DNA of 64,000 nt, from positions 9,734,001 through 9,798,000 of the forward strand of contig NC_092346.1 in assembly GCF_963676685.1 (NCBI RefSeq), in the 5' to 3' direction. The DNA is from Mytilus edulis (Eukaryota). The translations under genes were made by a program, and so were the position numbers. Under the pieces are notes generated by a model that searched no databases, was not told the DNA's origin, and saw only the letters and a list, made by a program, of their open reading frames with translations. This document shows, in pieces, positions 25,801 through 40,500 of this stretch (its first letter is position 1; every line of letters begins with the position of its first letter).

Positions 25801-28800
25801 CATGAATATAATTATTTTTCAACAAAGGGTATTGCAATAAGTGAAAAACATTTTTTAGTGTCATTTATTTCATAAATGTAAGATCGAAATAAAAGAAAGT
25901 TTCTTATATGAAAGATCAACAATCTAAAAATATTTAAATAGTGCAAAGGTTCCTAAATGATATATATTCTCAAAAACATGCACAATAAAAAGATCCAAAT
26001 GCTGAAGAACAGGAATGAATAGCATACCAAATGCAACTGTCCAACAGTCTCGTTTATCTTCTCCTTCACCAGCTTCCATTGTAGCCACTGGGTCATTTTT
26101 CTGTCGGGGATCCCATACTTTAACAGCACCTGTTTCAACAGAAAAAAAACATTAATTTCAATACAAAATTTTAACACTTTAAAAGCAAAACAAGAGATGT
26201 TAAATTAAAGGCAGTCTGCATCAAAATCTTTTCAAACTACTAAAATTTTACTAGCCTGGGGCATCAGACTAGTGGCTAATGATGTGGTCTGTAAGTTTTT
26301 TATATATAAAAAAACATATTTTGACAGAAGCAATTTTCTGGATTTATCTACATCAAAAACACTCCAACACAAAATTTCCCTGGTGATTAAAATTAACCTC
26401 TAAAGTTAACATAAACATCATACAATAAATCTACAAGAATACACAACTTTATTTGTCTTGTGCTCTTTCATAACATTAAGAGGTATACTCATATATTTGT
26501 TTAGGGACCAGCTGAAGGACGCCTCCGGGTGCGAGAATTTCTCGTTGCATGTGTTGGTGACCTTCTGCTGTTGTCTGCTCTATGGTCGGGTTGTTATCTC
26601 TTTGACACATTCCCCATTTCCATTCTCAATTTTATCTTAATTCAGAAATTAGTGTGTGCATTTATTATTGCAAATATTCAATAATGGATGAAAATTTGAG
26701 TTAAATTATTGTGATTTTTACGATTTCTAACAATTCTACATAAAGGTCTATATTTCAGATATCAGAATGCAATTCTTATTATTGTGATACTAATCCAGTC
26801 ACATAATTCTCATTAATAATACACATACCATCTCTACTTGCTGTGACTATTTCTGGAGCTCCCTCTCCAATGTAACCACCAACTCCATCAATAGCATTTA
26901 TAATTTCTTTGTGGGCTTTCACAGAATATACAGGTAATTCCATTGACTCTAGGTTCCTATAAACAACAATAAAACATATAAACCAGATATACTAAATTCA
27001 CCATCAGGATTTTGGGGTTTTTTTTGTCTTATGTTTCAAGGGACAAGTAGTATAGGATAAATGTTCACACATTGATGTTTAGGTCAAGCAACAAATTAAA
27101 TGCTTAATTTTAAGTCCACAGAAAGACTTGACACATTATTCTAACTATGAGCAAACCAGTCAGCATTCTTTAATCTTGAATAGGCCTTAGGCATGTTAGG
27201 GACATTGTATTTTTTTTCTTATAGCAAATAAGATTATCTGTAATTTGTAATACATTAAAAATATTTAATTTACAAACCATATCTGCATTTTTCCATCGAA
27301 GTCTCCTGTTGCAAAATATCTTTGCTGTAAACTTGATGCTCCAAATGTTCCACATTTCAAAGCTTTTGATTTCTCAATCTGTTAATAAAAATTATATAGC
27401 AGATTCATATATATATATAAAATGTACATGTATGTTTTTTGTAATGCATTTAATGAGAGTATCACAAGATTTTATATTATAATACATTGTACAAAGGTTT
27501 ATCTGTCTGGATATAATGGAATAAATGTATTGTTCAGTTTACTTGAGAGAAAAAAAAACATGATTACTACCAAATAGCAAAATTATCAAAATAAAATCTA
27601 CATGTATTTCATCTTTAAATGACTATTTAAATGAACAAAATTTCCATTTACTTTTTAGACTGAGTGACAGGTCAAATTTAATTAAAACTATTATATGAAA
27701 ATGAAATTAGACCACATATAATCAAAACCAACACATAAAATTCTGATCCTTGCTTGTACATGTTTTAGGTACAATGTATATTAGACTTTTCACACCAGGG
27801 GTTGGAAAACCAGCATGGGAAATTGTGGGTAGGCATACGCCTCCATGGGGTAAAACACCAGCAAATAGTGACAGTTGGCCTGGCAGGTACATGAGGTATG
27901 GGTAGGAGCAAACCTGTGAGGTGTGAACATGTTTTGGAAGTGAACGGACCCACTTGAATATACATGTACCAAAAAATAACATAGGTGGATCCAGGGCCCC
28001 CCTTTTCATGGAAAAAACTGTGGTTGATTATATAGGAAATCGCCCCAAACTGGTTTATCAAATCGCCCCTCTTTTTAAAAAATCGCCAACTTGTGAATGG
28101 GTTAAATCCCGTTAATAATGTTAATATTACTCCTGCCTACTCGCCCCACTTAATGAAAAACGTTATGCATATGGAACTAAACACATTTATTTCTAAAAAA
28201 ACAGTTGTTGGCATGACACGGGTTATGTTCTTCTCATATATTTTATGATAGTATGATACTAAACCCCTAACGGGAGGGATTGTACCTGATATTCATATGA
28301 TGAAGACATAATCTTTCAATCAGTTTAATTGAGGTCTGGAGCTGGCATGTCAGTTAACTGCTAGTAGTCTGTTGTTATTTATGTATTATTGTCATTTTAT
28401 TTATTTTCTTTTGTTACATCTTTTGACATCAGACTCAGACTTCTCTTGAACTGAATTTTAATGTGCGTATTGTTATTCTTTTACTTTTCTACATTGGCTA
28501 GAGGTATAGGGGGAGGGTTGAGATCTCATAAACATGTTTAACCCCGCCGCAATTTTGCGCCTGTCCCAAGTCAGGAGCCTCTGGCCTTTGTTAGTCTTGT
28601 ATGATTTTAATTTTTAGTTTCTTGTGTATAATTCGGAGTTTAGTATGACGTCCATTATCACTGTACTATTATGCATATTTTAGGGGCCAGCTGAAGGACA
28701 CCTACGGGTGCGGGAATTCTCGCTACATTGAAGACCCATTGGTTGCCTTCGGCTGTTGTTTGCTCTATGGTCGGGTGGTTGTCGCTTTGACATATTCACC

Positions 28801-29891
28801 ATTTCCTTTCTCAATTTTATTTTATACTTTTGTAGATGTGCAAACCTATCATCTGAGAATAAAATTATTTAAACACAGATGATTCTTGACTTATTTTATA
28901 AAAAAATGAATATATTTACCAGGGAAAAAAATGTCACATAAATGCTGATTCTACCTTCTTTCTGTTTAATTTTTACCATGCAAAAGAAAAAAAAATGCAT
29001 TTCAAACGTTCTCATAAGTGGGATGAATTGGAAAACCTACACTCTTTACAGTTTTATTATTTTATTCATATGTTGGGCTAGTTTGTAGTCATAAGTGGGG
29101 GGAGTTGGCATTGCTAAATTCATTGTGTTTTATTTATTTGTCATGAACATGATGAATGGAGCGAGGTGCCAGACCGTATTTCAAAGATATTTTAACCCTT
29201 TACATAAGTGGGGTAAGTTATCCAACCTATTTTCAATGGGATTTTACCCTTTTTAATGTGCCCATTTCTAGTCAATAATTATAATTAAATAAGTTTCCTT
29301 ATTTTTGTATTCTGTGTAGATTAGTCTCATATTTACAAAAATGTAAGTGGGTCGATTTGGCAGATAAAAAATTATAAGTGAATCTAAATATTACCGTTTT
29401 TCATTAAGTGGGGCGAGTTGGCAGTAGTTATATTAACGGAATTAAACCTATTTCACAAGTGGGGTGATTTAAAAAAAAAAATGGGGCAATTTGGTAATCC
29501 AGTTTGGGTCGATTTTTTTAAGTGGGTGGTTTTCGTGAAAAAGTAAGGCGATTAGGTGTTGGGGGATTTACCAGTGGGAGATTTGTCATGGATTCGTCAA
29601 ACAGATAGCGATAAGGTTCAACTTTAATTTTCCAATTTAACAGATTTAGACTAACCTGTTGTAGACAACATACATTACTACAAGAAACAGATAGTTGGGA
29701 AATTTGTTCTTACTTACATCATGAACTAGTTTGACATCACCATGTTGTACTTCATAAACCTGAAATGCTCCAGTTCCGCGTGCATGGTTACCGAGTACAA
29801 TAAATTTTGCGCTACACGGAATCCATTTTGTATCAAATAATGTGTAATTTACTGGTTTCTGTACATGGGAAATAATCTGTGGCTTCTCCAT
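19897..29891 (-). CDS. WDR92: WD repeat protein 92 / dynein axonemal assembly factor 10, 8 coding exons, 353 aa
   Basis: Exons 29718-29891 ([30 protein letters not shown]...), 27278-27378 ([29 protein letters not shown]), 26829-26956, 26028-26129 ([14 protein letters not shown]), 23020-23135 ([17 protein letters not shown]), 21936-22070, 20907-21004 (AHKSTVW), 19897-20104 ([27 protein letters not shown]). Sum 1062 nt, phases consistent. Confidence 0.96.
23605..25703 (-). mobile_element. Helentron/HINE-like element carrying two tandem arrays and a (GAC)n microsatellite, nested in a MITE in a WDR92 intron
   Basis: Same termini as 1997-2957; ~140-bp repeats at ~24450-24990; ~160-bp repeats at ~25000-25600; GACGACAACGACGACGACG at ~25625. 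Confidence 0.8.
28030..29596. mobile_element. Decayed inverted-repeat element with AAGTGGGGCGA-type subterminal repeats, interrupted by the 28190-28822 repeat
   Basis: AAATCGCCCCAAACTGG...AACTTGTGAA (28037-28097) versus TTCACAAGTGGGGTGATTT...CCAGTTTGGGTCGATTT (29452-29516). Confidence 0.6.
28190..28822 (+). repeat. High-copy interspersed repeat; 3' end dispersed through the window
   Basis: The end segment GGCCTTCGGCTGTTGTCTGCTCTATGGTCGGG...CCCCATTTCCATTCTCAATTTTAT recurs at ~7088-7327, 13515-13583, 26490-26636 and inverted at 58896-59010. Confidence 0.8.
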
Positions 29892-30000
29892 TTTGTTTTA
29901 AAACACTTTTAAAATAAGAAAACTTGTAGAAATTCGATTAAACCCAATCTTGTAGCAACATGAAATTTCTTTTTCTTTCGCGAACTTTAACCGGAAGTGA
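29892..30000. promoter_or_regulatory. Putative shared promoter of head-to-head WDR92 and RRP36
   Basis: ETS-type CCGGAAGT (29991-29998), TTTCGCGA (29976-29983) and RFX half-site-like GTAGCAAC (29952-29959) within ~110 bp of the WDR92 ATG. Confidence 0.55.
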
Positions 30001-31581
30001 AACTTTCCTACCTTATTGCAGAAGAGCTCTATAAATAAAAACAGGTGCTGCTAAAGTCAGTTAACTCGATACTTTGCCTTTGTTATGACACTTAAGTAGA
30101 TATTTTAACATTTCTCACTTTAATATTATGTAGATAGATAATTTTCTGACAGAGTGATTACAAACCCCATCACACTATCATGACTATTCACTGATTTAGT
30201 AATAATTTGATATTGTCAAGGATTTGTATAGTGATATTGTCAACAAACAAACATGTGCAGCTGGAATAAATTTTTGTTATGCCTAGTGGCTAGAGCTAGT
30301 GGCAAGCAGAAATGACATGAAGCAGGTGCTACCTGTTGAGAACATAAAAGTTATTAGTGCATGTTTATTTTGCTTTATATAGTGGATTTCTTGACCTGTA
30401 TTATTTTGTCAAATTTACCTCCACCAGACAGGCAACTTGGGCAAAAAAGGTCTCTTTCCTGTCTGTCACTTAGCTTTGCTGACTTGTCAAAAGGGAAATC
30501 TAGTGCGCCTGTTATTGCCCAAGGGTAAAAACTTAAATCTAGTCCCCCTGTTGTTCACCCTATTCGCTTTCAGTTGCTTTCGTCATCAGGAATTTGATTT
30601 TTTTACCAAATCCATCTATAAGTAAAGATGGGGGGGGGGGGGGGGGGGGGGGGGGGGAGGGTGCATGGTTCTGAATACAGATCCATGTGGAATAAAATTT
30701 GCAAAAATGACTTGCATTGAAAACAAAAATCAGGAAAAGCTATAAGCACCAGAAATAAAATAATAAATATTAATGAAAATAGTGCTAGAAGTTATGTAAC
30801 TCAGCTGTTCATGGAGATCATGCAGTCATTATTAATAGAAATGAAGACCTTGTGGTTGCCTTTTACCATCTGTTAGTTGTATTAGATTTAGGAAAAAAAA
30901 ATGTGATTCATTGTAATTTTATGTACTTTAATTTACAATATTTATATAGCACATTATCTAATTAAAATTACTCTAAGCGCTTAACATAAAACAATCAATG
31001 CAGTTAAGAGAGGTGTTTAAAAACATAAAAACAATCAATGCAATAAGAATGAAATAAAATTTTGAACACATAAAAAAAAACTTTACTGCATACAGTACAT
31101 GTATATACATATATACCGTAAATACATGTATACCATATCTGGTCGACTTAAATTATTCTGGTTTACCTTTGAATTAAATGCATGACAAGCCAGAGAAATA
31201 ATAAGTACAGACATAAAACACAAAAAACAAACAAGGGGGAAAAAGGAAGCATGCACATCGAACCAAATATGGGGGAAATGATAAATAAAACATCGAAACA
31301 CATAAGCACACGAAATAAAAAGGCAAAAAATTATGCACGGAAATAAAACTTTATCACACTCAGTAAAAAATCAAAGATATAAACATGTATATCCGTAAAT
31401 GATTTATTTTCTTTCAAAAAGAGGTTAAAGCATTGAATTAACAGTTCATGAATAATTAAAGGAACATACAATAAACTTATTATTTCATAAACGTAAACAT
31501 GATAAAATCATGAAAATAGATGTGTTAGTAATCCAACTTGAAATAATTTTGTTGTTGCAGAAATTGTAATTATAGAAGAGA

Positions 31582-34500
31582 ATGTCTAGCACTATATCAG
31601 TTTCCAAGAAAAGAAAATCTACATTAGACACAACTGCTTCATATTCAGTAAATAATGCAAAAAAGAATAAGATGTCGAAATTACCCAAAAGTCCAGTCGA
31701 TGAGTTACATATGATGAGGAAGAAAGAGCAGGTTGAAGAGTCAGATACAACATCTGAGGAAAGTACCGTTGAAGAATCTGAATCTGAAGGTTCAGATGCA
31801 CAAGAGGCTGAAGCTGATGAATTAGTAAGAATTAATAAGTTGCATAAGTTAAACATTTGTACAACTTTACTATACAATGTATATATATATATAGTTTATT
31901 TTCACAAACTGATCCACGCTTAAATAGATTGAATGTTGATTTTTGCTATTTTTAGACATTATATAAAATAACAACTTGTTAGGATTTGTGATTTCTTCTA
32001 CTAGTTAAAATCACTTCTCACAGATATTTGTTTGAAAGGAGTTAATAAAAATATTGTTTGCCTCAGAGTTTAGGAGAAATCTTATTCAATAAACTATATA
32101 CATTTCACAAACTGGCCTTAATGTACATTGAAATTCTATAAGTGAACCAAGACCTGAAGTGGTAGAGTTAAAACAAGTGAATACTGCTAGGTATAATTCC
32201 CAGTTATCTTTAAATAAATAAGAATGTCGCCACACAACTTGCACAAGACAAACTGTCATTGTTCAATTACTCTAAAGATAGACACAAAAAGAAATTATAT
32301 TTTGTACAAAACTTTTGAATTGTACTACATGTATAATATTAAAGTATAAAAAAAAAATCAACAGGAAGCTTCAAGCCTAATGGACAGAACAACAGATTAC
32401 AGTAACATTAACACCTAAGAAAAAACAAATTAGAGGTCATTTTATATGTACAAACAAAGACAAAACCAAAACAAACAACATATGGTCCCAAAATAATATG
32501 TCTTCTCAAGGAATTGCATTCATTATCAAATCAATAGTTATTGTTTTTATTTTTTGTTTTTAGGTAACAGTTAAGCAAGGTAAGTTACATATATATATAT
32601 ATAAGGCATCAGTTAGACAGCAACCAAACAACAAAAATATCCAAAAGGCATCTAGGCAGGAAATGAAAATTACATTTTAAATTTATTAGTTTGATGTATG
32701 GAAGACTTTTCTGTAATTGCCTTCCTCAGAATGCTATTAACGAAAAAGATGCATAAAATGCTTCGAACCTAAAAAGACTAATAAAAACCATATACATGTA
32801 TGGTTAGCTTTGACTCAAGGAGTTGGAACAGAAGATTCTGTATAATTTCTAAATTTGTCAACCACACTGACAGTTTTAAGAAATGTATAATAAACTATGT
32901 CAATTGCAAAACAATGACTATTGAGCTAATAATATTCTTGAGAACTAACCACCAGCAGCTGTATCAAAGTTGTGCTGAAAAATGAAAATAACATTTCATA
33001 AATTTGGTGGCCTGAAGCAGTCTTCTGGATTAACTTTCATCAAAAACATTCCACACCAAATTTAAATGCCAATGATGGGTAAGAAGAGTGATATACTTTC
33101 AAATTAATTTATAGGATATACAATTTGGTTTCAGAATTATCAAATATGTCTTTTGAAGAACTAATACAGTTGAAAGAGAGGCTTGGTTTAAAAGTGTAAG
33201 TATATTATTCTTCATTGAGATAACAAAAAGTCTCCTTGTACTTGAACTTTAACGCATTTGTAAAGTGTAAAAAAATCTTCAGTTCAAATTTTTTATGAAA
33301 ATGTCAAGAACTTAAAAATTCCTGGATTTGTGATTTTCTGTTCGTGGTGATGCTCAAATCATCAGCGTAACAAAGCTGAAATATACTCATGCCAACTCAT
33401 GTTCACTGTGGCCTTTAACCTTGAATTTTGTAATGATATTGATAAAGCTTAACTCATATTCAAATGTATTGTATCTGTGTATTCAAGTTGAATGATTTTA
33501 AAATGAAATAGGTCTAGAAAATTGAACCATATAAAAGTGTACCCACTCCAACTGTGGGCTGATTGGAATTGACAAAATCCAAATAAATTGTAAAATATCA
33601 ATGTTATTTTTTTTTTTTACACAATGTGAATATTTTCAGATATAACCAAGTAGTACATGGAGATAAAGTGAAGAAGCCTACCTCTAAAAGAGTTTTTAAA
33701 AGAGAAAATAAGAACAGGTAACACTATCCAATAGCTAAAAACTCATTAAATTGAAAAAGGCAGTAAATATATTCCTTCCTTATTGGTGCAATTATTAAAT
33801 TTTGTAAATACACAGGACACCTCAAATGTGAAGTGAACAAAATGAATCACTCCATGTGCATCATAACTTTTGATTTTTAACTGGATTTTTGTGACAAAAA
33901 TGTCGGTTATTGATTTGGGAAAATACGCCGGGCGGTCGGTCGGGCGGGCGGCAATCAAATGTTGTCCGTGCATGAACTCATGAACCAATCAACCAAAGCT
34001 TTTAAAATTTTAATATGTTGTTACTGACAACTAAATGAAGGTCAAGTTCAATAATGGCGATTTTGACTCTTACAGTTCAGGAGTTATGGTTCTTGAAAGA
34101 TTGAAAAATGGAGTTTTCAGTCGTGTCTGTGCATTTACGCATGAACAATTCAACCAAAGCTTTTAAAATTTTAATATGTTGTTACTGGTGACAAAATAGA
34201 GGTCAAGTTCAATAATGACGATTTTGACTTTTACCGTTCAGGAGTTATGGTTCTTGAAAGATTGAAAAATGGAGTTTTCAGTCATGTCCGTGCATTTACG
34301 CATGAACTGTTCTACCAAAGCTTCCCAAATTGTAATATGTTGTTACTGATGACAAAATGGAGGTCAAGTTCAATAATGACGATTTTGACTTTTACCGTTC
34401 AGGAGTTATGGTTCTTGAAAGATTGAAAAATGGTGTTTCCAGTCGTGTCCGTGCATTTACGCATGAACCATTCAATCAAAGCTTTTCAAATTTTAATATG

Positions 34501-37500
34501 TTGTTACTGGTGACAAAATAGAGGTCTAGTTCAATAATGACGATTTTGACTTTTACCGTTCAGGAGTTATGGTTCTTGAAAGATCGTAAAATGGCGTTTC
34601 CAGTCGTGTCCGTGCATTTACGCATGAACTGTTCTACTAAAGCTTCCCAAATTTTAATATGTTGTTACTGATGTCAAAATGGAGGTCAAGTTCAATAATG
34701 ACGATTTTGACTTTTACCGTTCAGGAGTTATGGTTCTTGAAAGATTGAAAAATGGTGTTTCCAGTCGTGTCTGTGCATTTTCTCATGAACCATTTAACCA
34801 AAGCTTTTCAAATTTTAATATGTTGTTACTGATGACAAAATAGAGGTCAAGTTCAATAATGATGATTTTGACTTTTACCGTTCAGGAGTTATGGTTCTTG
34901 AAAGATCGTAAAATGGTGTTTCCATTCACATTGTTGCATTTACTCACGAACCATTCAATCTTAGCTTTTCAAATTTTAATATGTTGATACTTATGACAAA
35001 ATGGAGGTCAAATTTGATATTGACGATTTTCACTTTCACCAATCATCAGTAATGGTTCTTGTGATATTGCCAGGACACAAATAAATGTTAATAAATCCGG
35101 TGTGCCTGTCGTTGTGACAGCCTCTTGTCCTCTTATGCTTCCTTCTAAAGTCTCTTTTTTTCCCCTTGTTTAGACAGGACGAAAGATATGCATACTTTCT
35201 ATGACAGTTATAGAAAGTAGCAACTGTACTGACTGTTTTAGCAGTAGTCATGTTCCTTATGTTTGGTTAATAATAGCAGTGAATGTATCCATTTTTCCTG
35301 AATAGTTGAATGATACAAACCAGCACTAATAACAGTCTCTAAAAATTGAAGTAAGGTGAGAGTGTTTGCTCTTCTTTAAAAGTCTCACTGTAACTTTGAG
35401 ATGAATATCAGCAATGAAAGCGCTGTTCCCATGCTTTTTTAATATTTTTCTGTTCATATACTGATTTTGTGTCATGAGGATGGGAAACCCGGTTACCATA
35501 TTCGATTTCTTTTGTGAGTTAGTGATGTCTTTGTGCCATAGAACGGTACATATCTTTCATAATATAAAATGAACAAACACCCATTTGAAATTATTCAACA
35601 CTTTATTAAACTGCAAAATCAACAAATGAATAAAATTATTTTAAAACAGTCTGTCGGATTTTTAAAGAACGATGATAATGTCCCTTCCAGTTTTCGTTTT
35701 TTGCTTCATTCGGGTTGGGGACCTTTACAGGTCAGGTTCGTCGGCCATGTTAAAAACATTATAACATGTATAATAGACTGTTTTGAAATATTTATAGATA
35801 GACCAAAAAAATTAAACGCCAGAGCAAAATGCTACTCCAACTATAAAAAGCACAGTACTGTTAAAGTTTTAATTGGCTGTAGCCCTTTAGGTTCAATAAC
35901 ATTTTTATCTGAAGTATGGGGCGGTAGAGTGTCAGACACCGAAATTGTGAGGTCATCTGGGTTTATAAGTTCAATATATCATCACCCAGGTGATCAAATT
36001 CTTGCAGATAGAGGCTTTACTCTTCAAGACGACTTTGCCAGTGTATGCTCTGCAGAACTTATAATTCCGGCTTTTACAAAGGGAAAATCACAGTTATCTG
36101 CAGAGGAGGTTGAAACATCGCGTAAAATGAGCAGCATCAGAATTCATATTGAGAGAGTGATCGGTTTGATGAAAAACCGGTACAAAATTCTACAAGGGAC
36201 TATACCAATCAATATGCTTAAATCAACCACCGATGAGGCATCCACCAAGAAGCAAGCTCGAATAGACAAACTCGTCCGCATTTGCGGATCATTAACCAAC
36301 ATGGGGGAAGGAATTGTCTACAATGAAGAAAGTGATTGACAATACCTCTAATTTAGAACATCCTTTTTAGAGTGGCTGAATGATAAATGTTTATTATTTT
36401 CAAATATTGACTGTATATACATAGTAAATAAAAAATATATGTAGTTCTAGGTTACATATATGCATGCACTTATGATCAATATCTGACTGTTGTTGAGTTC
36501 AACATTTACAGCTAATTTCCTAAAGCATGTAGAGCAAGACTTAAGTTAACTTGCTTGCTTTGTTTTTATATTGTACAATCATTATGATAACACCCAATTA
36601 AATTCAAATATTATATATACAAGTTTAACTATGCCTTTGTGTCAACAATTATACAAACAAAGCAAACAAGCCAACAAAGTTTTCCTTTACATGCATTAGG
36701 AAATTTGCTGTAATGGTCTCAAAAAACAAAATTATAACAATAAATAACTACAAAAGTTGAACACTGTTATATACGTCTCTGATGGTGACAGGTCCACATG
36801 CAAAAGTATTTATTAAGAGCTAGTAACGGGAATGTTTTTACAGTCTTTACATAACCATTGTCCTTTTGGTATTCTTTTCATTTTTAAACATTTAAGATGA
36901 TACCACTGAGTTTTACATTGTGGGTTGTCACAACCAATCATATTCTCCTTTCCATCATCCTTTGATCGGCAGTAGCAATACAATTTATCATTTCTCAAAG
37001 GTACTTGTTTAATCTTGTTTTCCAATTGTCTCGTCAATAATTCTGTCATCACATGACGAATGTGAAAATCTTTCAGTTTTGTTATCATATCTTTAATGAA
37101 GACGTCATTGCGTAAAATATAAAATATCGCTGTTACCTTTGATGTATAAATTACCAAGTCACATAAATTTACATCATGCACGTACATATGAAGCTGGATT
37201 TGATAGTAATATTTGTGTGTAGTCTTCACCTCTCTGCCATTAGCCACAATGCAGGATGAAGGGTCTTTTACATACTCCTGTAATGTCGATTCCTTGTGAC
37301 TGAACGGACATTTGACCTCTATAACTCTATTTCCGTGACAGGAACAGCTGGCTACAGAGTCAGCACTAGCACCAATAAAAGGGGTTTCTTTAGAAATTAG
37401 GAAGCCTGCAGAACTCATATTAAAATGTTGATGTTGTGTCTTCATGGTTGCACTGTACTGATGCAGCGCAACTTTTTCATTTTCTTTACCCCAATGAATT

Positions 37501-40500
37501 GCAGGTACATGATCAAGTGATTTTGAACTAGGGTTACACAAAGTTTTAAGTAGTGATGGCGCTGGATTGTTGAAATCTGTATGTAAAACACTGTACACTA
37601 CTGAAGATGTTATTCGACCAATGCGTTGTTCATGCCATGTTAAAGATGAGCTCTGTTTTTGAGTAACATCGTAGATATACATGATTGTCTCTTTACTCAT
37701 GCTGTAACTATCATTAATTTCGGAGCATTTTCTGCTTAAATCTATTTTTGTGAAGTCTGCATACTCTGCCTTGTACAGAGATCTAAGACATTGTGGTACA
37801 ATCGGATCTGAGGAAACAGTTTTTTGCCAGTGAAATTTGTCAGAGAAGTTGTCAAATGTACTAAGAACCACATGTTTGCTGTTACAAGCATGCAAAGTTT
37901 GAAGAAGAGTCTGTTGTTCTTGTTGGGTTGATGACAAATGTCGAACTTTTACCTTCTTTGCTTTGTTTATACAGCTGGTTTTATAGAATTGAATGTCTTT
38001 TACGGGCGCAGGCTGTACCTTTTTAACGAAATCAGCATTCCACTTGCATGGTAGCTCAGTGCAAAGTTTAGTGGTATATCCCAGTCTCACAGCGGCTTCT
38101 ACTTTGAAGAGAAGGGCTGCAATATGGGAACATGATTCTGCAAGCCTAAAAAAAAATAGGATTTTTGTTTTGCTATCTAGAGATATATGTGTACAGACTA
38201 TTATGACAAGTTTTATACATAAAAAAATATTGCGACCTTTTTTCCATTACTTTTTTCCTGTCTTTACATTATCATACACAAAATTTGCAACAGTCGTAAG
38301 CAAATCAAAAAAAAAAAAAGAGAACAACCTTCAAAGTAACCTGTATGCATAATAAATATAAATGATTTCAATACGATTTTAAAACCTACCCTGCCATGCA
38401 ATTGCAGTGAGCCACGGCTACTGAACCATCTGCAGAAAGGGCAACCCATGGGTGATGAGGTTCCTCGTTCAGTCTTTGTGACGGCCTAACATCTGATTTC
38501 AGTATAGTGTATGCACTGGTGGCAGGCTTATAGCTGTAAACTGTCTGAACCCATCCTGACTGAAAATAGTTGTGGGCATCCAAACTCTTATAGGATTTCA
38601 TACTTGCTCGGGTAAAAATGCCTGAAAATCATACATTGACTAACATAAGAACAAGTCCTTGCGGCTGGGCATATTTACTGTCCTATATTCAATTTAAATT
38701 TAATAGGTTCCAATATTAACCTTTTTAAAAAGTTCACTCTACATATGGTACACATATATGTCAAGATACCGGTATAAGCAAAAACAATTTAAATTACTAG
38801 AAACAAAAAAAATAACAGATTTTTGTAAAAAGGGGAAAGCTAAAAGAATTTATTCTGTTCCATAGTACCTTAAGCATACAAGGAGCTTTGTACATTTTTT
38901 TGTACATTTTTTAATTTTCAGTATAACTGACAAATATTTTAAAACACATGTTTAAAACATTTAATACGTAACCTAGTATTATTCCTAATAATTTAAAGTA
39001 ATATTCTGTAACAGTCTTAAAAGTTATTCACTTTTTATTTTAATCTATATCTTCAGCTTCATGTCATTTTAAAAACTTGACACATATCATAATTATAACT
39101 TCGTGTATTAATTAAAGTTTACATGGACACTAAACGAATATTAAATCTATCCTTTCACACCTGACCTGGGAGGAAATCACCCACTGTGCAAAGTTTATTG
39201 CCAAAGATGTGTCATCTCATCTTCATTTATAACAACTTCTATCATGGTCCGCGTCCTTTACATTTAATTTTTTTTTAAATCAAACTTAAAAGAACAGAAT
39301 TATAACCAAATTAACTTTGCTACACAATTAATCTATATTACATATGTATCAATCTGTGTTTAGTTCTAAATAATATCGCCGTGAATATATTTTTTTTCAT
39401 ATTTTGTTAGTTATTTCAAGGATGTGTTTATTATGTTTCTGCTTACTTTTAATACACAGAGACATATATATGCCTCATCTTTTCATACTAATATTTCACT
39501 GCATAAATCGGTACACCCTTATTCTTCAAAACCGGAAAAAAATAATTAAAGTTATCTATAGGTGTGCTCAGCTTAATAATTTTTAATTCTAAATACCTGG
39601 CGTGTCAATTAAATAGGAATACACATCTCCAAACTGGAGATCTGGCCAACATGATGGGTTATTTTTCCAAACACCTGCAGGGAACTTGTATGGACATTCA
39701 TCACTGTTAATTAACACTAATTTGGTACTATAACGACCTTGTGCCACACTGTCTAGCTTATCAAAATAATTGTATGCCATCTAATTACTGTTTACACCTT
39801 AATTAATAAATGTAAAGTGTTATCTCAATTAACTGACCATTAGCGGTGATTGGAGTATCTAGGGAAAAGCGTCACCTACAGTGATGCCCGGATGCTGTAA
39901 CTACCGGCTGCTACGTCACGCCGGATAACAGAATAAATTTTCGTTCGCCAAAATGGCGATTGCAACTGAATTTTTATTAGCCACAAAATAAAATCATTCG
40001 CCCATGGTGAGTGTGGCGACCTTTACCGCTAACACAGACTGAATCTCAAGATTATTTGAAAGTGAAGCTTGTACATTTGGTAACATAATTGGTCCCATCA
40101 ACACATTATGATGGACTACAGTAGACTATTGATAACTACTATGGTAACAGAAAATATCCTTACAAATTACAGTCATTAAATCACACATGATATGCATTTC
40201 TAGATTTTTAAGCAAACAATAGTTTATAAATGAATTGATCTATTTATAGACCTATGGAAATGTCATCTAAAAGACCAGTGAGGTTAAGCAAAGAAAGTGA
40301 TCCAGCTAAGAAGAAGGTAATTTATCTTATATTTTAATACTTTAATACGTCAAGTTGTGATTATTGTTTCTGATAATAGAAATTTCTTTTCAAATTTCAA
40401 GACTAGAATTAAATGCAACAAGATCAGATGACTATTAACAAATAGACCCCAATTTTATATCAACTATAAGAATAAATGATTTACCAGACATAAACCAAAA

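What the first reader, a model, noticed from the sequence alone, without database searches (positions are those of the whole stretch)
36813..36985. ING-like PHD finger with intact candidate H3K4me3 aromatic cage on a transposon protein
Seen: LYCYCRSKDDGKENMIGCDNPQCKTQWYHLKCLKMKRIPKGQWLCKDC, a full C4HC3 set. Established: ING-family PHD fingers (YC.C...MIGCDN..C..EWFH..C......PKGKWYC) bind H3K4me3 using the Tyr, Met and Trp residues retained here. Inference: the element may target active chromatin, loosely analogous to the RAG2 PHD partnering a DDE recombinase. This copy sits ~6-10 kb from a putative bidirectional housekeeping promoter, which is suggestive but is a single case.
Basis: partly seen in the sequence, partly recalled or inferred. 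Interest (0 to 1): 0.75.

Follow-up and report, generated by a model that had tools for sequence, protein, structure and literature searches.

The report
Transposon exonuclease carrying a histone-reader finger
A jumping gene in a mussel genome carries, on its predicted DNA-trimming helper protein, a zinc finger built like the ones that read active-gene marks on histones, so it likely binds such marks, but the few copies I could map sit near gene starts no more clearly than related elements that lack the finger.

Summary
The PHD finger is real. It ends an intact three-exon, 582-aa SWIM–YqaJ (lambda-exonuclease)–PHD gene, the second ORF of a young ISL2EU-type DNA transposon (11-bp TIRs, AT flanks, convergent DDE transposase). 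This copy is 5'-truncated, nested in another repeat, in an internal intron of an RRP36 gene. The finger is ING-type: the 20 best PDB hits are ING-family. It keeps the cage Tyr, Met, Trp and the Arg2-pocket Asp, but lacks ING's cage Ser, Gly and Arg2-pocket Glu. The fusion is widespread: 69 of 118 homologues (molluscs, echinoderms, Hydra, tick). Across 67 distinct fingers the histone-contacting residues are kept or lost together (Asp in 55/56 with the cage Trp, 1/11 without; about 8 independent losses), which points to selection for H3-tail reading. Promoter targeting is not shown: start codons lay within 0.9 kb of 4/12 sites with this family's ends, 0/7 of the coding family itself, 2–3/13 PHD-less ISL2EU sites and 1–2/20 random points. 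Capture from ING is unresolved. I found no paper describing a PHD on ISL2EU ORF2, but PHDs on other transposons are known. Verdict: new variant of a known kind, moderate interest.

The parts
36840..36980 (-). ING-type PHD finger (C4HC3) at the C-terminus of ORF2; cage Tyr, Met, Trp and Arg2-pocket Asp kept; ING Ser, Gly and Glu replaced
37176..37637 (-). YqaJ / lambda-exonuclease (PD-(D/E)XK) domain; Asp (37361), Glu (37319) and Lys (37313) of the catalytic motif present
   Evidence: Pfam PF09588 E 1.5e-19; invariant in 62-row alignment; fold match to lambda exonuclease E 1e-8
36813..38145 (-). ORF2 exon 3 (end of SWIM motif, nuclease, PHD, stop)
   Evidence: splice 38389/38144 seen in one contig of run X1
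38390..38621 (-). ORF2 exon 2, ends in the CxC half of a SWIM-like CxC...CxH motif (motif read by eye; no Pfam hit on the exon alone)
   Evidence: GT-AG, in frame; no Pfam hit
39597..39780 (-). ORF2 exon 1 (ATG at 39780); the three exons give 582 aa without internal stop
   Evidence: conserved in sister families
35762..36339 (+). 3' remnant of the DDE_Tnp_4 transposase (catalytic core only; THAP, HTH and left TIR deleted in this copy)
   Evidence: Pfam PF13359 E 2.4e-49; breakpoint from alignment with the C12 and C7 copies
39922..39932 (+). right terminal inverted repeat (11 bp), followed by AT at 39933-39934
36506..36713 (.). high-copy hairpin (MITE-like) between the convergent 3' ends, shared by the three near-identical copies
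   Evidence: inverted repeat I5; very high contig depth
35250..35761 (.). left part of the low-copy host repeat into which the element inserted
39933..40037 (.). right part of the same host repeat; 5-bp direct repeats at 35228-35232 and 40038-40042 bound the whole 4.8-kb block, which is absent from an allele seen in three runs
33718..40249 (+). internal intron of the RRP36 host gene that contains the element (next exon 40250-40316)
   Evidence: loose end at 40248 matching the exon that ends at 33717, and joint 40314>41201; Pfam RRP36 E 1e-10
29888..31582 (.). interval holding the divergent WDR92 / RRP36 promoter (start sites not mapped; RRP36 start codon at 31582 is my reading)
   Evidence: WDR92 N-terminus E 5e-26

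Best explanation
[quoted passage not shown] Shown: domain, gene structure, element ends, family spread, and joint retention or loss of the H3-contacting residues. Inferred: H3K4me binding (probably weaker or with another methyl-state preference than ING, since Ser, Gly and Glu are replaced and the domain is basic); that ORF2 works with the transposase, as the Myb protein does in Harbinger; and that the nuclease trims 5' ends at excision or insertion breaks. The finger would add chromatin retention or activation, as the RAG2 PHD does, rather than a strong choice of target site.
For: ING-type fold and sequence: 20 best PDB hits ING-family; family profile hits ING PHDs at E 7e-22 to 6e-19 and the best non-ING PHD at 1e-9; model pLDDT about 90-95 over the finger, rmsd 1.1-1.8 A to ING-H3K4me3 crystal structures. 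The two residues whose loss cripples ING3 binding (Trp, Tyr) are kept; loss of the Ser cost only about 2-fold (PMC5000080 passages). In 67 distinct fingers: cage Trp 56, Met or aromatic 57, Tyr/Phe/Trp 51, Asp 56, against a median column conservation of 39%. With the Trp: Met-site 54/56, Tyr-site 48/56, Asp 55/56; without it 3/11, 3/11, 1/11. Trp loss needs 8 changes on the nuclease tree, at least 7 forced by supported branches; Asp is lost throughout 7 of these 8 lineages. 14 of 24 Met replacements are Trp or Tyr (background 5%), the same kind of change as in RAG2L PHDs (PMC10629977 passage). Catalytic Asp, Glu and Lys of the nuclease are invariant.
Against: No binding assay. Only 21/67 fingers keep strict Tyr-Met-Trp and 20/67 keep the Arg2-pocket Glu, against 52/52 for ING1/2; this copy has Gln there and net charge +5 against about -1 for ING. 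Three recently mobile ISL2EU families in the same genome lack this PHD, so it is dispensable for transposition. The co-varying residues are neighbours in the fold and could co-vary for packing. Most homologues have no genomic context; a neighbouring transposase was seen only for own-genome copies.
Confidence: 0.5

Rival explanations
1. One reading: the PHD steers new insertions to H3K4me3-marked promoters.
For: 4 of 12 insertion events with this family's ends lie within 0.8 kb of a start codon (30, 328, 395 and 789 bp), against 1 of 20 random points (Fisher p 0.053). CpG o/e is higher next to the junction than further out (one-sided p 0.046).
Against: All four are non-autonomous elements that share only about 90 bp of each end and encode no PHD. 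The coding family gave 0 clear cases of 7, this copy included. PHD-less families gave 2 of 13 (3 with a transposon gene); p 0.38-0.67 against 4/12. 10-kb CpG o/e 0.58 against 0.84, p 0.18. Surviving copies are filtered by selection, and the reading was by hand and not blind.
Confidence: 0.2
2. The finger binds something other than methyl-K4: DNA or nucleosomes through its basic face, unmodified H3, or the transposase.
For: Domain net charge +5; family mean +1.6 against -1.2 for ING; Glu replaced by Gln or Lys in 30/67; Lys-Arg before the conserved Pro in 64-73%.
Against: The basic loop is as charged in ING (+3.0 against +3.3). DNA binding does not explain why Tyr, Met, Trp and Asp are kept and lost together.
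Confidence: 0.2
3. The finger is a passenger from an old capture, kept folded but with no role in transposition.
For: PHD-less families are mobile; 11 PHD-less rows fall among the PHD-bearing ones in the tree, some of them probably losses.
Against: Retention in proteins only 29-52% identical across several phyla, and surface residues conserved far above the protein's median.
Confidence: 0.1

Closest known systems
ISL2EU group of the PHIS (Harbinger-like) superfamily (PMC4482050, passages and supplement rows; PMC4122938 and PMC9179366, passages)
   Same: Two ORFs: THAP-HTH-DDE_Tnp_4 transposase and YqaJ protein; short TIRs; AT on both sides; about 5-6 kb; animals.
   Different: ORF2 ends in an ING-type PHD, which these papers do not mention ('PHD' 0 times in the three supplements of PMC4482050). 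TIR starts TC, not the usual GG; flanks are mostly AT-A rather than A|AT|T.
ING1-5 / Yng1, Yng2, Pho23 PHD fingers (PDB 2g6q, 2vnf, 3c6w, 2jmi; PMC5000080 passages)
   Same: C4HC3 fold, cage Tyr, Met, Trp, Arg2-pocket Asp, C-terminal Pro and Trp; 42% identity to the host ING1 PHD, 48-55% in sister families.
   Different: No ING N-terminal domain; two extra loop residues; cage Ser, Gly and Arg2-pocket Glu replaced; basic rather than slightly acidic; far more variable across the family.
RAG1/RAG2 and RAGL transposons (PMC10629977 passages)
   Same: Convergent two-gene DNA transposon whose non-transposase gene ends in a PHD with a conserved cage Trp; Met-to-Trp changes occur in both.
   Different: The partner here is a lambda-type exonuclease, not a kelch protein, and the transposase is Harbinger-like; RAG2 is not among the PDB hits, so a parallel, not homology.
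Other transposon-borne chromatin readers: PHD in Ginger1 and Mutator transposases (PMC2836005 passages), PHD in CR1-like retrotransposons, chromodomains of chromoviruses, MBD in Copia (PMC6673714 passages)
   Same: A mobile element carries a host-type chromatin reader proposed to bias its activity or integration.
KolobokE (PMC9587614 passages)
   Same: DNA transposon with a lambda-exonuclease-like domain.
   Different: There it is downstream of a Kolobok transposase domain with TTAA duplications; here a separate convergent gene, DDE_Tnp_4 and AT flanks.

Membership tests
ISL2EU transposons | ORF1: DDE transposase with HTH and THAP | tested here: met
   Pfam DDE_Tnp_4 and HTH_Tnp_4 on the C12 copy; THAP-type Cys/His exon read by eye in other copies, not confirmed by Pfam for this family. 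The window copy keeps only the DDE core.
ISL2EU transposons | ORF2 with a YqaJ exonuclease domain | tested here: met
ISL2EU transposons | TIRs and 2-bp AT target duplication | tested here: met
   11-bp TIR; AT outside 8 of 8 left ends and 9 of 12 right ends (one AC, one tandem junction, one degenerate); AT on both sides in 4 of 4 single copies with both ends. No clean empty site, so the AT could in principle belong to the TIR.
ISL2EU transposons | usual, not obligatory: TIR begins with GG; target context A|AT|T | tested here: not met
   TIR begins TC and flanks are mostly AT-A. Two PHD-less families here begin AG, one GG. PMC4482050 gives GG as 'usually' and A|AT|T as a proposal.
ISL2EU transposons | DDE domain groups with reference ISL2EU transposases in a tree | not tested
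ING proteins | N-terminal ING domain (PF12998) | tested here: not met
   No hit on exon 3 or exons 1-2; the host ING1 gene is elsewhere (L076). It is not an ING gene.
ING-type H3K4me3-reading PHD | C4HC3 zinc ligands and ING-like fold | tested here: met
ING-type H3K4me3-reading PHD | cage Tyr, Met, Trp and Arg2-pocket Asp | tested here: met
   positions from PMC5000080
ING-type H3K4me3-reading PHD | cage Ser, Gly before the Met, Arg2-pocket Glu (conserved in ING1-5) | tested here: not met
   Gly, Glu and Gln at these sites in this copy. So it resembles an ING reader but is not filed as one.
ING-type H3K4me3-reading PHD | selective binding of H3K4me3 | not testable with these tools
   needs ITC or a peptide array
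ING-type H3K4me3-reading PHD | descent from an ING gene (nesting inside ING in a tree) | tested here: inconclusive
   51 columns, 52 of 74 inner branches open; transposon fingers lie mostly outside the ING group; ING3/4/5 of animals barely sampled

The most novel reading that the evidence does not exclude
A large, old animal clade of ISL2EU transposons uses an ING-type H3K4me3 reader on its exonuclease partner to bring the transposition machine to active promoters: an independent, nuclease-based parallel of RAG1/RAG2, with natural reader-less and cage-dead families as built-in controls.
Probability: 0.2. Interest if true: 0.75.

Novelty: new variant of a known kind. Interest (0 to 1): 0.45.

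Why it matters
The role of the ISL2EU second gene is stated to be unknown (PMC4482050 passage). A conserved histone-reader surface fused to an intact lambda-type nuclease places that protein on chromatin and gives a direct test. One mussel genome holds PHD-bearing and PHD-less young families, and the wider family holds cage-dead ones, so reader-guided transposition can be tested by comparison. If targeting holds, it is a second origin of the RAG-like layout; if not, it remains an unreported domain of a known group.

Tried and rejected
Promoter proximity of this copy as evidence: rejected (internal intron, nested in another repeat). CpG o/e of 10-kb flanks, 13 sites (the C10 duplicate counted twice) against 20 controls: p 0.18. 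Promoter-motif counts near junctions: several fell inside repeats, not used. PHD tree to name the donor: unresolved. Single origin of the fusion: all 69 PHD rows fall on one side of a weak branch (SH-aLRT 78, quick tree), not shown. A homologue search on the PHD region alone gave only 3 near-identical proteins. Of the 150 best PHD matches among 1.84 billion representatives, 52 were linked to this nuclease, 7 to an ING N-terminus by my own profile, 91 to neither, so ING-like fingers occur in many proteins and ING need not be the donor. Outer 10-bp inverted repeat with 5-bp duplication as a separate transposon carrying the element as cargo: possible, but the other copies of that repeat do not share the left end. 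No RNA holder was on record in the run index. Paper search for ING2 residue numbers found nothing; one paper id recalled from memory was not held. The scan's earlier findings held no look-alike by sequence.

Full report
Observation. The quoted peptide lies on the minus strand at the end of the open frame 36813-38246, with all eight zinc ligands. Pfam gives YqaJ (E 1.5e-19) and PHD (E 1.9e-5) on this frame and DDE_Tnp_4 (E 2.4e-49) on a convergent plus-strand frame ending at 36339. A strict PHD pattern occurs once in the window and in none of 100 shuffles. Three GT-AG exons (39780-39597, 38621-38390, 38145-36813) give a 582-aa protein without internal stop. The second intron is spliced in one contig of run X1, whose RNA status is a guess; raw RNA reads cover the gene thinly in 1 of 3 raw runs and also cover its first intron, and may come from other copies, so expression is only weakly shown.

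The element. The host is a Mytilus mussel by protein hits. Two other copies are about 98.5% identical over 35762-39935. The family has an 11-bp TIR with AT outside 8 of 8 left ends and 9 of 12 right ends. The transposase has HTH_Tnp_4 and DDE_Tnp_4 domains and a THAP-type first exon. This is the ISL2EU layout (PMC4482050, passages; PMC4122938, passages; PMC9179366, passages). The window copy has lost the left TIR and most of the transposase. None of the copies I examined is complete: C12 lacks the THAP exon, C7 has a stop and a 1.3-kb insertion, others are internally deleted or interrupted.

Its place. It lies in an internal intron of an RRP36 gene divergent from WDR92. The true end is 8.4-10 kb from that promoter, beyond the 1-2 kb usually covered by H3K4me3 (my recall). 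It sits at an AT inside another low-copy repeat whose three other copies lack it, and contigs of 3 of 4 laid runs show an allele without the whole 4.8-kb block. This single location says nothing about targeting.

The finger. The 20 best of 34 PDB matches are ING-family; the family profile separates ING (E 7e-22 to 6e-19) from other PHDs (1e-9 at best) and also hits lambda-type exonucleases. The model (mean pLDDT 89) matches lambda exonuclease and ING-H3K4me3 structures. With the host ING1 PHD as query, the best genome hits after ING1 and a decayed duplicate are ISL2EU fingers. By the ING3 study (PMC5000080, passages) the cage is Tyr, Ser, Met, Trp and the Arg2 pocket Asp and Glu; Trp and Tyr are critical, Ser is worth about 2-fold. 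This copy keeps Tyr, Met, Trp and Asp, and replaces Ser, the Gly before the Met, and Glu; its net charge is +5.

The family. Of 118 homologues, 69 have a complete PHD by pattern, 67 distinct; the other 49 are truncated, decayed or truly PHD-less and were left out of the residue counts. Named carriers include bivalves, gastropods, a sea urchin, a brittle star, Hydra and a tick; Atlas clusters agree. Zinc-ligand conservation is built into the pattern and is not evidence. Cage Trp 56/67, Met or aromatic 57/67, Tyr/Phe/Trp 51/67, Asp 56/67, Glu 20/67, strict Tyr-Met-Trp 21/67; ING1/2 52/52 at each. Where the Trp is kept, Met-site 54/56, Tyr-site 48/56, Asp 55/56; where lost, 3/11, 3/11, 1/11. The p-values there ignore kinship, but Trp loss needs 8 changes on the nuclease tree, and across those 8 lineages Asp is gone in all members of 7, the Tyr site of 5 and the Met site of 5. 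14 of 24 Met replacements are Trp or Tyr. This is the best evidence that most of these fingers are selected as H3-tail readers. Origin is open: PHD-bearing nucleases fall on one side of a weak branch; the PHD tree is unresolved; ING-like fingers occur in many non-ING proteins.

Targeting test. I read flanks by hand, not blind, and counted start codons within 0.9 kb. Sites with this family's ends: 4 of 12 events, at 30 bp (signal peptide, PAN and fibrinogen domains; two duplicates counted once), 328 bp (first intron of a secreted Cys-rich gene that I recall as TMEM67-like; name not confirmed), 395 bp (membrane protein) and 789 bp (CFAP206; that this is the first coding exon is my recall). All four are non-coding elements sharing only about 90 bp of each end. 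The coding family gave 0 clear cases of 7, one possible untranslated exon at about 1 kb. Three young ISL2EU families without this PHD occur in the genome; 13 copies were read and the C3:86.6 Mb pair left out: 2 host starts (a 7TM gene, an ion-channel gene) and one transposon gene. Random points: 1 host start and one transposon start in 20. Fisher tests: 4/12 against 2-3/13, p 0.38-0.67; 4/12 against 1/20, p 0.053; all ISL2EU 6/25 against 1/20, p 0.11. Only one flank was available at 11 of the 25 events. A mild general liking of ISL2EU for gene starts is possible; a PHD-specific one is not shown.

Mechanism. Most likely ORF2 is an active 5'-end-processing nuclease (catalytic residues invariant) that works with the transposase, by analogy with the Harbinger Myb partner (PMC9179366 passage), and its finger retains or activates it on H3K4-methylated nucleosomes, as described for RAG2 (PMC10629977 passages). 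Binding, partnership and nuclease activity are all inferred.

Novelty. PHDs on transposons are known: Ginger1 and Mutator (PMC2836005 passages), retrotransposons (PMC6673714 passages), RAG2L; KolobokE has a lambda-type nuclease (PMC9587614 passages). Searches and the supplements of PMC4482050 (30 of 41 ISL2EU places shown) gave no description of a PHD on ISL2EU ORF2. Databases already flag the domain automatically, and Repbase entries, subscription papers and figures were not visible, so an earlier mention is possible. Verdict: a real, apparently unreported variant of a known group; interest 0.45.

Noticed in passing
G000:C11 (loci): 8 of 16 PHD-bearing ISL2EU ORF2 loci in my hand-made list lie on contig C11, 6% of the genome, many decayed. 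Copies are not independent; local hopping or slow loss could explain it.
   Followed up: partly
window 35228-40042: The whole block is bounded by 5-bp direct repeats and imperfect 10-bp inverted repeats and is absent from an allele in three runs; could be a second transposon or a deletion between microhomologies.
   Followed up: partly
window 33963-35128: 161-bp tandem array that also occurs inside the host repeat at C7:67.5 and 67.6 Mb; its end at 35000-35128 is deeply covered by RNA reads.
   Followed up: partly
window 36506-36713: High-copy hairpin element between the two convergent 3' ends, shared by all three near-identical copies; may serve as a 3'-end or terminator element.
   Followed up: no
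L026 / L036 (G000:C12:55.42-55.43 Mb): Head-to-tail dimer of an internally deleted copy joined TIR to TIR by three bases.
   Followed up: partly
L197:7112-8434: A PHD-less ISL2EU family whose ORF2 ends in a different Cys-rich tail with no Pfam match.
   Followed up: no
L223/L224 (G000:C10:59.14-59.16 Mb): A PHD-less ISL2EU copy interrupts the coding exon of a neurotransmitter-gated ion-channel gene.
   Followed up: partly
window 28037-29515: 1.4-kb element with long inverted ends inside a WDR92 intron (I1 and I3).
   Followed up: no
L084-L086, L093, L094: Another dispersed family in this genome with tandem ING-like PHD fingers, probably a different transposon.
   Followed up: no
window 35972-38404: An internally deleted derivative joining these points exists in three laid runs.
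   Followed up: no
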